Virus record (IMG/VR): IMGVR_UViG_3300026321_000001
From: an uncultured virus (IMG/VR IMGVR_UViG_3300026321_000001)
Taxonomy: Duplodnaviria > Heunggongvirae > Uroviricota > Caudoviricetes
DNA: 20,000 nucleotides
Strand: one strand, 5' to 3'
Shown here: one piece after another, positions 2,286-5,937 of the stretch
How positions within the stretch are numbered: position 1 is the stretch's first letter
How the letters are laid out: each line of letters opens with the position of its first letter
Translations under genes and position numbers: made by a program
The notes under the pieces: generated by a model
Seen by the model: only the letters and a program-made list of their open reading frames with translations
What the model was told of the DNA's origin: nothing
Database searches by the model: none

Positions 2286-2415
2286 CAGCATCAAGATTAG
2301 TAATTACTATCTTGTTACCTTCAATCGTGAATTGCAATTCATCTTCGTGATCCCAACACAGTTCTTCATAGAGTGTGTTGAGTCGATCCATATCTTCCCA
2401 AAGATCAGCAGTCAT
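2278..2415 (-). CDS. Small acidic hypothetical protein (45 aa)
   Basis: [29 protein letters not shown]...; its start is coupled to the petF stop (TGATG). Confidence 0.7.
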   Translation of the reverse strand: MTADLWEDMDRLNTLYEELCWDHEDELQFTIEGNKIVITNLDADD

Positions 2416-2705
2416 CAGTACAAATGCTCCTCCTGCTCCGTAAGAATAGTTACATCGGATGTAGGATATGCAACACAAGTTAATACAAAACCTGCTTCGA
2501 TCTGATCTTCATCTAAGAAGGACTGATCTTCTTGATTGACTGACCCTTCAACTACCTTACCTGCACAGGTACTACAAGCACCAGCACGACAAGAGTATGG
2601 GTGATCGATACCTGCTTCTTCAGCAGCGTCTAAGATGTACTGATCAGAAGCACATTCAAAAGTTTCTAGTTCACCTTCAGTGGACTTAAACGTTACAGTT
2701 GCCAT
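2415..2705 (-). CDS. petF: Plant-type [2Fe-2S] ferredoxin
   Basis: [28 protein letters not shown]...DQSFLD...[11 protein letters not shown] with all four Cys ligands. Confidence 0.98.
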
Positions 2706-3374: not shown

Positions 3375-3848
3375 TCAACCCATAAAATAATCCTTGCGAT
3401 AATATCTCCCAAGGATGTTTGAATTATAAAAGGCAGGCTCCCCATCAGGACCTGCCTCTGTTAGTACATTATTTAAGAACAGTTGTCTTGTCTCTTCGAA
3501 GTTTACTCTTCCCTGAGTGTTGTGGAGACTGAGGATCTCACGCTTGAAAAGGTTTCGTCCATACTTTTTAATGTCTTGCTTAAGCTCCTCAGAACTTCCG
3601 TAGTACTTTTTCCAGTCACTCTCAGACGAAACACGGCGTTTCCCACCTCTAGGCTTTCTACGCTTGGTAAAATTTTTCCGTCCGATATATTGTTTACCCG
3701 ACTGGAGATTTGTAATACGGTAGACGTAACCGAAGAAATCGTTAATGTCGTTAGAAGTAAAAGTTGTACCTTGATAGGTCCAGGGGTTTTCATAACCTCC
3801 TTCAACCACTGTGGTCTTTTCATTCGTACTCTCCGTCGTTGTCATCAC
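3375..3848 (-). CDS. GIY-YIG family nuclease (Seg-like, free-standing)
   Basis: GYVYRITNLQSGKQYIGRK...YYGSS...E...FYNSNI. The exact start is uncertain. Confidence 0.85.
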   Translation of the reverse strand: MMTTTESTNEKTTVVEGGYENPWTYQGTTFTSNDINDFFGYVYRITNLQSGKQYIGRKNFTKRRKPRGGKRRVSSESDWKKYYGSSEELKQDIKKYGRNLFKREILSLHNTQGRVNFEETRQLFLNNVLTEAGPDGEPAFYNSNILGRYYRKDYFMG

Positions 3849-4620: not shown

Positions 4621-5281
4621 CGGGGTGTAAACCCTCCATTAGTGTTGCCCAATCTCTATCGAAAGCTTCTAGTCCCATATCAGTTAGACAATGGTCGAAC
4701 AACCTGTTGAATACGTCGTACGGTACAGTACATACGTCAGCACCCATTCTGAATGCAGAGGGTACATCAATGGGGTTCCTAATACTTGCAGCAAGGATCT
4801 CAGTTTTAACATCATTTCTATCATAAATTGTACGGATATCCTTTATAAGAGTTAGTCCATCCCAATACTGGTCTGCGACTCTACCTATGAAAGGTGAGAT
4901 GTATGTTGCACCTGCCTTAGCAGCAAGTACTGCCTGTGCTGGACTGAATACAAGAGTTATATTAGTAGAGATATCATCTGCTGATAGATCACCACAAGCA
5001 ATTAGTCCTTCTCTATTACAGGGAAGTTTAATAGTAATATTAGGAGCTATCCTAACATAATTAGATGCCATCTCTAACATCTCTTCAGCATCGTTACCAA
5101 CAACTTCAGCAGATATAGATGAATCCCAAGGGAACATCTCTGCTATACGTTTGATAACTTCTTCAGGATCTTGTCCCAACTTCCTCATTAGAGTTGGGTT
5201 AGTGGTAATACCATCCACGAGACCAGTCTCATTAGCGTGTTTTATCAGATCTGGATCTGAACAATCGAGAAAGATTTTCAT
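4613..5281 (-). CDS. talC: TalC-family transaldolase
   Basis: MKIFLD...GITTNPTL...SAEV...IKLP (Schiff-base Lys)...NITLVFS...SPFIGR...LAASIR. The Glu and Phe signatures favour transaldolase over FSA. Start set at ATG 5281. Confidence 0.95.
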
Positions 5282-5304
5282 AGGTGGAATGTAGCTTAGA
5301 GTAT

Positions 5305-5333
5305 ATAGTACCACAAAAAAAGAGACCTATCAA
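5305..5333 (-). promoter_or_regulatory. Sigma70-like promoter TTGATA-N17-TACTAT for talC-pyrE
   Basis: -35 at 5328-5333 and -10 at 5305-5310 with an exact 17-nt spacer. Confidence 0.6.
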
Positions 5334-5340
5334 GGTCTCT
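5315..5340 (-). terminator. Intrinsic terminator after the DUF4278 peptide gene
   Basis: AGAGACCT-TGAT-AGGTCTCT followed by a T-run. Confidence 0.8.
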
Positions 5341-5367
5341 CTTAGTCCTAACAATCAAGCTAGTAGG

Positions 5368-5490
5368 TTAAGCATTGCATAGTTCTTTATTGAACTTGAC
5401 TCCACGATAAGACAGTTCAGTCTTATTGCAGCGTGTGCTTGGTGCTTTGTTGGTGTCGTACTTGACTCCACGGTAAGTGACTTGTGCCAT
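5368..5490 (-). CDS. DUF4278-family small protein (40 aa)
   Basis: Not in the track. MAQVTYRGVKYDTNKAPSTRCNKTELSYRGVKFNKELCNA has two YRGV repeats, an AGGAG Shine-Dalgarno and an upstream glutamine-riboswitch-like RNA. Confidence 0.85.
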   Translation of the reverse strand: MAQVTYRGVKYDTNKAPSTRCNKTELSYRGVKFNKELCNA

Positions 5491-5524
5491 TGGTTTACTC
5501 CTAAAGTAATTGGATTTTTAGCCC

Positions 5525-5698
5525 CGTTCCTTTAGTCATTTGCGTCCCAACACCCTGGTGTCTCCTCCTTTACAATCTGAATCATTTCAGATTTAAGATT
5601 GTCTTCAACTCTATAGACCTTCATCTTATCGACAAGATCTTGAGCATCAGAACAAGTTAAAGCAGCAGCTAATAACAAGGGCATCATAGGGATGAACG
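5525..5698 (-). ncRNA. Glutamine-II (Downstream-peptide) riboswitch-like aptamer 2 with a 140-nt insert in P2
   Basis: 5' arm CGTTC-A-TCCC (5698-5689) and 3' arm GGGA-CGCA-AATGACTAAAG-GAACG (5548-5525), sitting upstream of a DUF4278 gene. Confidence 0.7.
5532..5687 (-). CDS. 51-aa protein nested in the riboswitch loop
   Basis: MMPLLLAAALTCSDAQDLVDKMK...EETPGCWDAND has a hydrophobic N-terminus and two Cys, with GGAG 11 nt upstream. Confidence 0.6.
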   Translation of the reverse strand: MMPLLLAAALTCSDAQDLVDKMKVYRVEDNLKSEMIQIVKEETPGCWDAND

Positions 5699-5701
5699 CT
5701 C

Positions 5702-5739
5702 CGTTCCGTGACCTACTTGCAACCCCGAAGGGTCGAACG
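5702..5739 (-). ncRNA. Compact glutamine-riboswitch-like aptamer 1
   Basis: CGTTC-GACC-CTTCGG-GGTT-GCAAGTAGGTCAC-GGAACG: P1 CGTTC/GAACG, P2 capped by cUUCGg, and a GCAAGTA junction like glnA/Downstream-peptide motifs. Confidence 0.65.
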
Positions 5740-5765
5740 TAAGGATATGATAACATATCCATTAC

Positions 5766-5771
5766 TATTTA
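5766..5771 (-). promoter_or_regulatory. Late promoter core TAAATA for the riboswitch/DUF4278 transcript
   Basis: Intergenic CTAAATAG followed by the hairpin GGATATG-TTAT-CATATCC (5743-5760). Confidence 0.55.
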
Positions 5772-5790
5772 GCAAGAAATGTTACAAAGA

Positions 5791-5937
5791 CTACCGTTTG
5801 TATCGTCGTGGACCATTTGGTTTCCTTGCGTGCCACTTCTTATACCAGTCTTTCGTGATTTCTACTCTCGGTTCCTGCTTCAGTTCTCGTTTAAGTTCTC
5901 TGAGGAAACGGAGATGAAGTTGAAATTGATTACGCAT
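5791..5937 (-). CDS. Small, highly basic hypothetical protein (48 aa)
   Basis: Not in the track. MRNQFQLHLRFLRELKRELKQEPRVEITKDWYKKWHARKPNGPRRYKR overlaps the oxygenase 3' end. Confidence 0.5.
   Translation of the reverse strand: MRNQFQLHLRFLRELKRELKQEPRVEITKDWYKKWHARKPNGPRRYKR

What the first reader, a model, noticed from the sequence alone, without database searches (positions are those of the whole stretch)
5525..5698. Protein-coding ORF nested inside the P2 loop of a glutamine-riboswitch-like aptamer
Seen: the two halves of a Downstream-peptide/glutamine-II-type aptamer, CGTTCATCCC and GGGACGCA...GGAACG, are separated by 140 nt. An ATG begins 1 nt after the 5' arm. The 51-codon ORF runs through the loop and ends within the 3' arm, whose bases encode W-D-A-N-D-stop. 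Extra pairing (ATGCCCT/AGGGTGT) would extend P2 over the start region. Established: these aptamers bind glutamine, precede DUF4278 genes and normally have a short P2 loop. Inference: aptamer folding and translation of the nested ORF are mutually exclusive, so one switch could control two peptides reciprocally according to host nitrogen status. I cannot confirm that this arrangement is undescribed.
Basis: partly seen in the sequence, partly recalled or inferred. Interest (0 to 1): 0.85.

Follow-up and report, generated by a model that had tools for sequence, protein, structure and literature searches.

The report
Gene nested inside glutamine riboswitch
In this ocean cyanophage, a small conserved protein gene sits inside a hairpin of a two-core glutamine-sensing RNA, so the same letters act as sensor and as codons, and sensing nitrogen probably competes with translating that gene.

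Summary
The arms at 5698..5689 and 5548..5524 match, nearly letter for letter, the arms of uninterrupted glutamine aptamers in related phages. They close around a real 51-codon gene (5687..5532, phrog_504).

Of 124 related loci, 89 have this long-loop form, and all 89 hold an open frame from an AUG just after the 5' arm to a stop in or near the 3' arm. The closing pair across the gene covaries (CG 55, UA 18, UG 13, none unpaired of 86). The gene evolves like a protein gene (median dN/dS 0.27).

A covarying helix joins the two cores, which probably fold one inside the other as a Glutamine-I-like double sensor. This sensor lies ahead of a DUF4278 (IF17-like) gene, whose ribosome site pairs with the 3' arm.

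Reciprocal control of the two peptides is plausible but untested. In my searches I found no paper that describes this layout. Notes from this scan show the same layout on at least six other genomes.

The parts
5747..5775 (-). Promoter-like site: TTGCTA, 17 nt, TG-TATCAT. It would start the RNA at about 5740, at the first aptamer letters.
   Evidence: Consensus scan: 3 sites found against 1.2 expected, so this is weak evidence. RNA-library contigs reach 5760 and 5850, so the true start is not settled.
5701..5739 (-). Sensor core X. CGTTC 5739..5735; hairpin 5733..5722 with a UUCG loop; linking strand TGCAAGTA 5721..5714; inter-core helix strand GGTCA 5713..5709; GGAACGG 5707..5701.
   Evidence: Rfam sub-threshold matches: RF01739 and RF01704, both 19.8 bits. 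Homologous modules are in all related loci. The hairpin pairs covary in relatives.
5699..5702 (-). GGAG made by the AG linker between the cores, 11 nt before the nested AUG. Probably a Shine-Dalgarno-like site for the nested gene.
   Evidence: Among aptamers of the window's type, the AG linker is in 58 of 61 ORF-bearing loci and 0 of 10 ORF-free loci (Fisher 6e-10; the loci are related, so the p-value overstates).
5689..5698 (-). 5' arm of core Y. CGTTC 5698..5694, A 5693, and the 5' strand of the closing helix TCCC 5692..5689.
5532..5687 (-). Nested gene of 51 codons plus stop. Family phrog_504, two invariant cysteines, predicted two-helix hairpin.
   Evidence: PHROG match, E 2.4e-14 over the full length. 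An ORF is present in 89 of 89 long-loop loci. Coding signature. AlphaFold2 mean pLDDT 78.9.
5549..5556 (-). 3' strand of the window-specific 8-bp extension of the closing helix. It pairs with 5685..5678 and covers the second AUG.
   Evidence: Minimum-free-energy fold. It is one sequence only, and the fold's z-score is -1.47.
5524..5548 (-). 3' arm of core Y. Closing strand GGGA 5548..5545; linking strand CGCAAA 5544..5539; inter-core helix strand TGACT 5538..5534; AAA 5533..5531; GGAACGG 5530..5524. It also encodes W-D-A-N-D-stop.
   Evidence: Identical to the 3' arm of uninterrupted L081, which scores 40.2 bits with RF01739.
5498..5535 (-). Alternative hairpin: CTAAAG 5535..5530 pairs with CTTTAG 5506..5501. 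The hairpin overlaps the AGGAG ribosome site (5502..5498) of the downstream gene.
   Evidence: A 6-of-6 complement is found in 99 of 109 unique loci. A C partner occurs only opposite G: 31 of 66, against 0 of 35 opposite A. The hairpin is present in the minimum-free-energy fold.
5368..5490 (-). Downstream gene of 40 aa: a DUF4278 (IF17-like) peptide.
   Evidence: Pfam PF14105, 30.2 bits against a cut-off of 25.3. phrog_5049, E 1.1e-13.
5318..5343 (-). Intrinsic-terminator-like stem-loop with a T run. It ends the unit.
   Evidence: 11 pairs followed by a T run.

Best explanation
The locus is one small transcription unit: promoter-like site, double glutamine sensor, DUF4278 gene, terminator.

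The sensor has two glutamine-binding cores, X and Y, joined by a shared helix. They most likely fold one inside the other:
- The first CGTTC pairs with the last GGAACG, forming an outer Glutamine-I-like three-way junction.
- The middle GGAACG and CGTTC form a local hairpin, the stem of the inner core.
- The inner core's hairpin is closed by TCCC/GGGA around a real 51-codon gene.

That gene's GGAG site and AUG lie in the inner core's stems. Its last six codons and its stop are the linking strand, the shared helix and the E-loop of the sensor.

Without glutamine, the 3' arm's CTAAAG pairs with CTTTAG and partly masks the DUF4278 ribosome site. The nested gene's start is then free, and translating ribosomes keep the arms apart.

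With glutamine, the folded sensor should bury the nested gene's start and release the DUF4278 ribosome site. Glutamine would then turn the IF17-like peptide on and the nested peptide down.

Shown here: the anatomy, the covarying helices, the coding status and the mutual exclusivity of the pairings. Inferred: ligand binding, the direction of each output, and the one-inside-the-other register as opposed to side-by-side folding.
For: Homology to intact aptamers:
- 33 of 124 related loci carry the same arms around a 9-25 nt loop, and 89 carry them around a 140-207 nt loop.
- Uninterrupted relatives reach RF01739 scores of 34-43.6 bits against a threshold of 35. L081, whose 3' arm is identical to the window's, scores 40.2 bits with RF01739 and 35.7 bits with RF01704 (threshold 33).

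Closing helix across the gene:
- The fourth pair is CG 55, UA 18, UG 13, with 0 unpaired of 86.
- In the ungapped register, positions 4 and 5 pair in 86 and 77 of 87. The maxima in 1000 partner permutations were 79 and 68.

Shared helix between the cores:
- X GTCG goes with Y CGAC in 67 loci and X GTCA with Y TGAC in 5 of 5. There are no mixed cases.
- In the longer type, X T/A goes with Y A/T: AU 8, UA 6, none unpaired.
- The full nested structure on 24 uninterrupted sequences is 97.1% paired, with 7 covarying pairs, and 0 of 500 shuffles reach it.
- Rfam's best alignments and RNAalifold both choose the nested register without being told to.

Real gene:
- 89 of 89 frames are open, against a 2.8% chance per shuffled interior. 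The other two frames are open in 1 and 0 of 89.
- Summed entropy by codon position is 46.9 / 22.4 / 65.1, and median dN/dS is 0.27 in the 124 of 210 pairs with finite dS.
- All 87 unique products have exactly 2 Cys.
- The family is phrog_504.
- The GGAG linker is in 58 of 61 ORF-bearing loci and 0 of 10 ORF-free loci of the same type.
- L059 has its own AGGAGG inside the loop.

Expression platform:
- The CTAAAG/CTTTAG hairpin covaries.
- It uses letters that the folded sensor also needs.

Background:
- Glutamine riboswitches act as ON switches for IF17 and IF17-like genes (PMC6212724 abstract and passages; PMC6698751 passages).
Against: - The window does not reach either Rfam threshold: 19.8 bits, on core X only, and no hit at gathering level.
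- Infernal cannot bridge the loop. My own model hit only 5741..5699 at 22.5 bits, so the split core has no direct model score.
- The closing helix is only 5 bp in 39 of 87 loci. The G of the AUG is paired no more often than under permuted partners (40 of 87 against a mean of 43).
- The CGTTC/GGAACG stems never vary, so covariation cannot tell nested from side-by-side folding.
- The window's minimum-free-energy fold is not unusually stable: z -1.47, and 15 of 200 shuffles fold as well.
- A ribosome terminating at 5534..5532 sits on the 5' strand of the ribosome-site hairpin. It could switch the DUF4278 gene on without glutamine, which argues against strictly reciprocal output.
- 25 of the 26 ORF-bearing loci of the longer aptamer type lack the GGAG.
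- The loci are related, so counts are not independent events.
- No binding, structure-probing or translation data exist.
Confidence: 0.55

Rival explanations
1. Translational coupling. The nested gene acts as an upstream reading frame. Ribosomes finishing at the stop inside the 3' arm unwind CTAAAG from the downstream ribosome site, so DUF4278 output follows nested-gene translation. Glutamine acts mainly by gating initiation of the nested gene through core X, and both peptides rise and fall together.
For: The stop codon (5534..5532) lies inside the 5' strand of the ribosome-site hairpin. The stop falls in the 3' arm, 15 or 18 nt past the first G of the arm's GACGC motif, in 82 of 89 loci. The nested AUG starts 11 nt after the GGAG, next to core X.
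Against: Uninterrupted loci (33 of 124) have the same hairpin and ribosome site with no upstream frame, so the platform works without coupling. The stop-to-AUG distance is about 40 nt, which is long for re-initiation. There is no direct test.
Confidence: 0.2
2. Passenger gene. The hairpin loop does not touch the ligand, so it tolerates insertions. A small phage gene settled there for compactness and shared transcription, and has no regulatory role. The sensor works only on untranslated copies.
For: In the solved Glutamine-II structure the equivalent stem-loop is capped by a tetraloop and the conserved letters cluster elsewhere (PMC6698751 passages). A second, different gene family sits in the hairpin of core X in 25 of 26 long-hairpin loci, which would fit a permissive insertion site.
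Against: The AUG begins 10 or 11 nt after the start of the CGTTC motif in 87 of 89 loci, and the stop lies at or within the 3' arm in 88 of 89, even though the proteins have diverged to 12-75% identity. A mere passenger should have drifting spacers. The GGAG linker is confined to ORF-bearing loci. The A of the AUG is paired in 77 of 87.
Confidence: 0.17
3. Decayed sensor. In ORF-bearing loci core Y no longer binds glutamine. The conserved arms persist only as codons, as a start-masking stem, or as the 5' strand of the ribosome-site hairpin.
For: The window scores below both Rfam thresholds. The last six codons would be conserved anyway if the peptide tail mattered.
Against: The tail varies exactly as ORF-free aptamers vary (AAACGAC, ACACGAC, AAATGAC, AAAAGCCGAC), and it covaries with core X. 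The third codon positions of the last six codons are almost invariant (1 of 6 variable), against 46 of 46 variable in the rest of the gene. That points to an RNA constraint, not a protein constraint.
Confidence: 0.06

Closest known systems
Glutamine-I riboswitch (glnA RNA, Rfam RF01739), e.g. the Synechocystis gifB/IF17 leader (Klahn et al. 2018, PMC6212724)
   Same: It has the same conserved core letters: the CGTTC/GGAACG stem, a hairpin next to it, an ACGCA linking strand, and AAGTA with GAA/AAA as the E-loop. A DUF4278 gene lies downstream, and an inhibitory pairing with the ribosome site fits an ON switch. Uninterrupted phage relatives pass the Rfam threshold.
   Different: Two cores share one helix and probably fold one inside the other. 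One hairpin holds a 51-codon gene, and the core letters double as codons and a stop. The window itself scores only 19.8 bits.
Glutamine-II riboswitch (Downstream-peptide motif, RF01704; structure in PMC6698751)
   Same: The pocket letters and the GGGACGCA linking strand are the same, and so is the association with short DUF4278 peptides in marine picocyanobacteria.
   Different: The GGAACG is not in the loop of a tight P2 hairpin closed directly behind it. The hairpin here closes 16-23 nt later in most loci and contains the ribosome site. The window scores 19.8 bits against a threshold of 33.
Tandem glutamine riboswitches, described as pseudo-cooperative doublets (Sherlock et al. 2022, PMC9481103: 157 doublets, 4 triplets; passages read)
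   Same: Two glutamine aptamers lie head to tail before one gene.
   Different: That survey counted tandems only when no ORF intervened, and it treats each unit as a complete riboswitch. Here there is one expression platform, a covarying helix between the aptamers, and an ORF inside the second aptamer.
Tandem glycine riboswitch (recalled; cited in PMC2864571 as refs 45-46)
   Same: Two like aptamers for one amino acid make contacts with each other and share a single expression platform.
   Different: It belongs to a different fold and ligand, it holds no gene inside an aptamer, and the contacts are tertiary rather than a shared helix.
Homing-endonuclease ORFs in peripheral loops of group I introns, e.g. 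phage T4 td with I-TevI (recalled from general knowledge, no call)
   Same: A protein gene is lodged in a stem-loop of a functional folded RNA, so translation and RNA folding can conflict.
   Different: The host RNA there is a ribozyme, not a ligand sensor. The ORF is a mobile endonuclease gene, and its ends are not built from the RNA's conserved core.
Leader-peptide attenuators (trp, his; recalled)
   Same: A short ORF in a leader whose translation decides between alternative RNA pairings.
   Different: The sensing there is done by regulatory codons. Here Gln is only 2.7% of residues, the product is a conserved folded protein, and a ligand aptamer is present.

Membership tests
Glutamine-I riboswitch (RF01739) | Covariance-model score at or above the gathering threshold (35 bits) | tested here: not met
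   In the window, RF01739 scores 19.8 bits and covers core X only, and the gathering scan found no hit. The model cannot span a 140-nt loop. Uninterrupted relatives score 34-43.6 bits. L081, with an identical 3' arm, scores 40.2 bits.
Glutamine-I riboswitch (RF01739) | Conserved core: CGTTC/GGAACG stem, adjacent hairpin, ACGCA-type linking strand, E-loop (AAGTA with GAA), and a P3 helix | tested here: met
   All elements are present when core X's 5' half is read with core Y's 3' end. The P3 equivalent, 5713..5709 with 5538..5534, covaries.
Glutamine-I riboswitch (RF01739) | The hairpin next to the CGTTC stem is closed by covarying pairs | tested here: met
   Across the gene: CG 55, UA 18, UG 13, 0 unpaired of 86. 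In short-loop relatives: CG 13, UA 10, GC 1.
Glutamine-I riboswitch (RF01739) | Selective binding of L-glutamine | not testable with these tools
   This needs in-line probing or calorimetry of the 5742..5485 RNA.
Glutamine-I / Glutamine-II riboswitches | Located in the leader of a DUF4278 (IF17-like) gene | tested here: met
   The product of 5490..5368 matches PF14105 at 30.2 bits, against a cut-off of 25.3.
Glutamine-II riboswitch (RF01704) | Covariance-model score of at least 33 bits, with GGAACG in the loop of a P2 hairpin (pseudoknot) | tested here: not met
   19.8 bits, on core X only. The hairpin that holds GGAACG closes far downstream and includes the ribosome site.
Pseudo-cooperative tandem riboswitches (two complete units) | Each aptamer has its own expression platform and folds independently | tested here: not met
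   Only 2 nt separate the cores (5700..5699). There is a single ribosome-site hairpin, after core Y. A covarying helix joins the cores.
Protein-coding gene (phrog_504) | Profile match, conserved open frame and purifying selection | tested here: met
   E 2.4e-14 over positions 1-53 of 53. Open frames in 89 of 89 loci. Median dN/dS 0.27, and third-position entropy is the highest.
Leader-peptide attenuator | Run or enrichment of codons for the sensed amino acid | tested here: not met
   Gln is 2.7% of 4843 residues in the unique nested products.

The most novel reading that the evidence does not exclude
This would be a riboswitch whose ligand-binding core is itself translated. Two glutamine pockets are built from swapped halves of two aptamers, one closed around a gene. 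Ribosome traffic on that gene and glutamine binding then compete for the same letters. One mRNA becomes a toggle: the 2-Cys nested peptide is made when glutamine is low and the IF17-like peptide when it is high. A second gene family uses the same trick in the other aptamer's hairpin in other phages.
Probability: 0.4. Interest if true: 0.9.

Novelty: new variant of a known kind. Interest (0 to 1): 0.8.

Why it matters
Riboswitch aptamers are treated as non-coding leaders, and surveys of tandem riboswitches explicitly drop cases with an ORF between the aptamers (PMC9481103). Here a conserved protein gene fills an aptamer hairpin. The gene's tail and stop codon are the ligand-pocket letters, so RNA and protein constraints overlap on the same bases.

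If the two outputs are reciprocal, one short mRNA gives a phage a two-way readout of host nitrogen status, next to a relative of the host's glutamine-synthetase inhibitor.

The layout is widespread: 89 of 124 loci sampled here, in viral contigs and named cyanophage isolates. It can be tested directly with probing, toeprints and dual reporters. It also shows that annotation pipelines and covariance models miss aptamers split by long loops.

Tried and rejected
1. I could not run it, because the Rfam tool reads only held sequence and I did not type a joined sequence. As a natural stand-in I scored uninterrupted relatives.

2. My own covariance model R1, built from 24 uninterrupted doublets, was searched over the window and 13 loci. 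It cannot bridge the long loop. In the window it hit only 5741..5699 at 22.5 bits, so the result is uninformative.

3. I scanned genome contigs for the junction pattern. All are chance matches in unrelated bacteria. This says nothing about whether hosts carry the layout.

I did not pursue the nearest virus record.

5. Fold energy: the z-score is -1.47 and 15 of 200 shuffles fold as well. This gives no support from stability alone.

6. Function of the nested protein:
   - Pfam gave no match.
   - The BFVD fold search gave only uncharacterized cyanophage proteins, best E 6.9e-3 and none at or below 0.001.
   - The Atlas gave unnamed viral clusters.
   - The big protein search gave 15 unnamed marine proteins.

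7. The 76-aa reading from the ATG at 5762 is rejected. Only 2 of 89 loci have any upstream in-frame ATG.

8. A glutamine-codon leader peptide is rejected, because Gln makes up only 2.7% of residues.

9. RNA evidence. Contigs from RNA libraries of two studies cover 5526-5693 (1 difference), 5664-5760 (0 differences) and 5664-5850 (0 differences, 1 gap). Contigs show no strand, no ends and no levels, and DNA carry-over is possible. This is only a hint that the region is transcribed. The parts without cover (5250-5438) prove nothing.

10. No complex prediction was run.

Full report
**What is in the window.** The window comes from a T4-like cyanomyovirus. Its genes include nrdA, nrdB, a transaldolase, a 2OG-Fe(II) oxygenase, a ferredoxin and a SegE-type GIY-YIG endonuclease.

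The finding lies on the minus strand:
- CGTTCATCCC is at 5698..5689.
- GGGACGCA...GGAACGG is at 5548..5524, 140 nt further on.
- An ATG at 5687 begins 1 nt after the 5' arm.
- The frame runs 51 codons and ends TGG GAC GCA AAT GAC TAA inside the 3' arm.

The downstream gene 5490..5368 is a DUF4278 peptide (30.2 bits against a cut-off of 25.3). A terminator-like stem-loop follows at 5343..5318, and a promoter-like site precedes at 5775..5747.

It runs from CGTTC at 5739..5735 to GGAACGG at 5707..5701. Rfam sees only this core, and only below threshold: RF01704 and RF01739 both score 19.8 bits against thresholds of 33 and 35. The gathering scan of the whole window found nothing.

**Relatives.** A distant blastn of the 461-nt region matched 339 phage records. 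In S-SSM4, S-P4, P-TIM40 and P-SSM7 the same order is present: core X, the arm, an ATG, a 53-60-codon ORF annotated as a hypothetical protein, the 3' arm, then the DUF4278 gene.

I dropped one unrelated GC-rich hit (L113) and added the four phage loci and the window. That gives 124 loci:
- 33 have the second aptamer with a 9-25 nt hairpin loop.
- 89 have a 140-207 nt loop.
- 2 lack the 3' arm in the DNA held.

The arms of the two forms are the same letters. L081, an uninterrupted locus, has a 3' arm identical to the window's over 26 nt. It scores 40.2 bits with RF01739 and 35.7 bits with RF01704. Other uninterrupted loci score 34-43.6 bits.

**The closing helix is selected.** In the 87 unique long-loop loci the first three pairs (U-A, C-G, C-G) are invariant. 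The fourth pair is CG 55, UA 18, UG 13, with 0 unpaired of 86.

In the ungapped register:
- Positions 4 and 5 pair in 86 and 77 of 87 loci. The maxima in 1000 partner permutations were 79 and 68.
- Position 6 pairs in 45 loci, against a maximum of 44.
- Position 7, the G of the AUG, shows no excess: 40 against a mean of 43.
- The helix is 5 bp in 39 loci and 7 bp or more in 25.

So the A of the start codon is paired in most loci and the whole AUG in a minority. In the window, the minimum-free-energy fold gives TCCC/GGGA, then a 3-nt bulge, then an 8-bp extension that covers the second AUG.

**The ORF is a gene.** All 89 long-loop loci have an open frame from an ATG that starts 10-21 nt after the first base of CGTTC (10 or 11 nt in 87). 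The stop ends at -13, 0, +11, +15 or +18 relative to the first G of the arm's GACGC motif, and 82 loci use +15 or +18. Further evidence:
- Shuffled interiors stay open 2.8% of the time, and the other two frames are open in 1 and 0 of 89 loci.
- In 21 unique 53-codon members, summed entropy by codon position is 46.9 / 22.4 / 65.1, and pN/pS is 0.46. Median dN/dS is 0.27 over the 124 of 210 pairs with finite dS.
- The last six codons are almost invariant at all three positions. That is an RNA constraint, not a protein one.
- The product matches phrog_504 end to end (E 2.4e-14) and has no Pfam family.
- All 87 unique products have exactly two cysteines.
- AlphaFold2 with 83 sequences gives a two-helix hairpin, helices 12-24 and 29-42, at mean pLDDT 78.9.
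- Fold and feature searches find only uncharacterized cyanophage proteins.
- The 76-codon reading from ATG 5762 is not conserved: only 2 of 89 loci have an upstream in-frame ATG.

**A ribosome site built into the sensor.** The linker between the cores is AG in the window, which makes GGAG 11 nt before the AUG. Among loci of the window's aptamer type, an AG linker occurs in 58 of 61 ORF-bearing loci and in 0 of 10 ORF-free loci. Among the longer type it occurs in 1 of 26 ORF-bearing loci. The loci are related, so the Fisher value of 6e-10 overstates the case. One locus (L059) instead carries AGGAGG inside the loop.

**The two cores are joined.** The strand after AAGTA in core X is complementary to the strand before AAAGGAACGG in core Y (window: 5713..5709 with 5538..5534).
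- X GTCG goes with Y CGAC in 67 loci, and X GTCA goes with Y TGAC in 5 of 5. These five include the window and span three ORF subfamilies and one ORF-free locus. There are no mixed cases.
- In the longer aptamer type the inner pair is AU 8 and UA 6, with none unpaired.
- Rare variants (L017, L061) change both sides of the outer pair.

The best Rfam alignments of uninterrupted loci join X's 5' half to Y's 3' end, leaving 38-46 nt in P3. RNAalifold, given no structure, also pairs the first CGTTC with the last GGAACG and the middle GGAACG with the middle CGTTC. The full nested structure on 24 sequences is 97.1% paired, with 7 covarying pairs, and 0 of 500 shuffles reach it.

The CGTTC and GGAACG letters never vary. 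The nested register is therefore favoured by fit to the Glutamine-I consensus and by energy, but it is not proven over side-by-side folding.

**The expression platform.** CTAAAG (5535..5530) spans the end of the shared helix, the E-loop A's and the first G of GGAACG. It pairs with CTTTAG (5506..5501), which overlaps the AGGAG site of the DUF4278 gene. A 6-of-6 complement is present in 99 of 109 unique loci. A C partner occurs only opposite G: 31 of 66, against 0 of 35 opposite A.

A folded sensor and this hairpin therefore exclude each other. That fits the ON-switch logic reported for glutamine riboswitches (PMC6212724, abstract and passages; PMC6698751, passages).

**Mechanism.**
- Shown: the pairings that bury the nested gene's GGAG and AUG, and those that free the DUF4278 ribosome site, belong to the same folded state. 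The open state does the reverse.
- Inferred: glutamine stabilises the folded state, so it lowers the nested peptide and raises the IF17-like peptide.
- Main caveat: a ribosome ending at the in-arm stop would itself open the ribosome-site hairpin, which would couple the two genes.

I put the toggle at about 0.4-0.55, coupling at 0.2, a passenger gene at 0.17 and a decayed core at 0.06.

**Expression.** Contigs from RNA libraries of two studies cover 5526-5693, 5664-5760 and 5664-5850 with 0-1 differences. Contigs give no strand, ends or levels, and DNA carry-over is possible, so this is only a hint.

**Literature.** I ran these searches:
- 'glutamine riboswitch' with 'cyanophage': 10 papers.
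- 'Downstream-peptide' with 'glnA RNA': 1 paper.
- The title of Ames and Breaker 2011 with 'glutamine': 33 papers, 10 listed.
- A six-term search on riboswitch, nested, ORF, aptamer, loop and small protein: 1 irrelevant paper.
- 'glutamine riboswitch' with 'tandem': 33 papers, 20 listed.

I read passages, not whole texts, of PMC2864571, PMC6212724, PMC6698751, PMC9481103, PMC9964418, PMC9004378, PMC12379486 and PMC7760959. They report tandem glutamine aptamers (157 doublets and 4 triplets, read as pseudo-cooperative) and cyanophage copies. None of the passages mentions a gene inside an aptamer or a shared helix. The tandem survey accepted tandems only when no ORF intervened.

Ames and Breaker 2011 is not in the library, and I did not see Additional File 1 of Weinberg 2010. 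Either could bear on the tandem layout.

**Earlier notes of this scan.** One search returned follow-up notes on at least six other genomes that describe the same layout: an interlocked double glutamine sensor closed around a 53-64-codon gene. They agree with what I derived before I looked. They are AI notes, not independent evidence. New here, as far as those summaries show, are:
- the GGAG linker confined to ORF-bearing loci;
- the second gene family in core X's hairpin (25 of 26 long-hairpin loci);
- the ribosome-site hairpin statistics;
- the RNA-library contigs;
- the protein model.

Noticed in passing
L005, L008, L016, L017, L023, L028, L033, L034 and 17 further loci (not in the window, whose core X hairpin is short, 5733..5722): A second small-gene family of 61-75 aa (hydrophobic N-terminus; the sequences printed each show two Cys) is nested in the hairpin of the first core. 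This holds in 25 of 26 loci with a long X hairpin. Its AUG again lies in the closing stem. Its stop either abuts GACGCAAG or is the UAA of the aptamer's own GGA CGC AAG UAA. Several loci carry genes in both cores.
   Followed up: partly
window 5772..5785 (-): An NtcA-box-like GTA-N8-TGC (5 of 6 consensus letters) overlaps the promoter-like -35 region upstream of the sensor. The consensus is recalled from memory. Earlier scan notes mention similar boxes.
   Followed up: no
window 5760: Two RNA-library contigs from one sample (5664-5760 and 5524-5760) end at 5760, 21 nt before the first CGTTC. This recalls the start about 20 nt upstream of the motif reported for yfr6 (PMC2864571). A contig from another study runs on to 5850. 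Contig ends are weak evidence.
   Followed up: no
L016, L021, L033, L055, L058, L059, L073, L089, L102: Some loci carry an extra inserted stem-loop (starting AACGGATC...) between GGAACGG and the ribosome-site strand. This lengthens the expression platform to 40-49 nt in the loci with the longer spacing.
   Followed up: no
L003 916-1110 (P-TIM40): A manA RNA (RF01745, 141.7 bits) lies between the DUF4278 gene and talC in P-TIM40. The window has no Rfam hit at gathering level in the same interval.
   Followed up: no
L104 259-584: A triple arrangement: a complete core, then an X-type core closed around a 67-codon gene ending ...IGRK, then an uninterrupted core. The linkers of the second and third cores pair as GTCA with TGAC.
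   Followed up: partly
window 3375..3848 (-): A SegE-type GIY-YIG homing-endonuclease gene (PF19835, 179.4 bits) lies two genes downstream of talC, and a 2Fe-2S ferredoxin gene is at 2415..2705.
   Followed up: no
window 5532..5762 (-); P0001, P0010, P0013: Gene callers sometimes extend the nested gene to 74-77 aa by starting at an ATG upstream of, or inside, core X. Conservation argues against this start: only 2 of 89 loci have an upstream in-frame ATG.
   Followed up: yes
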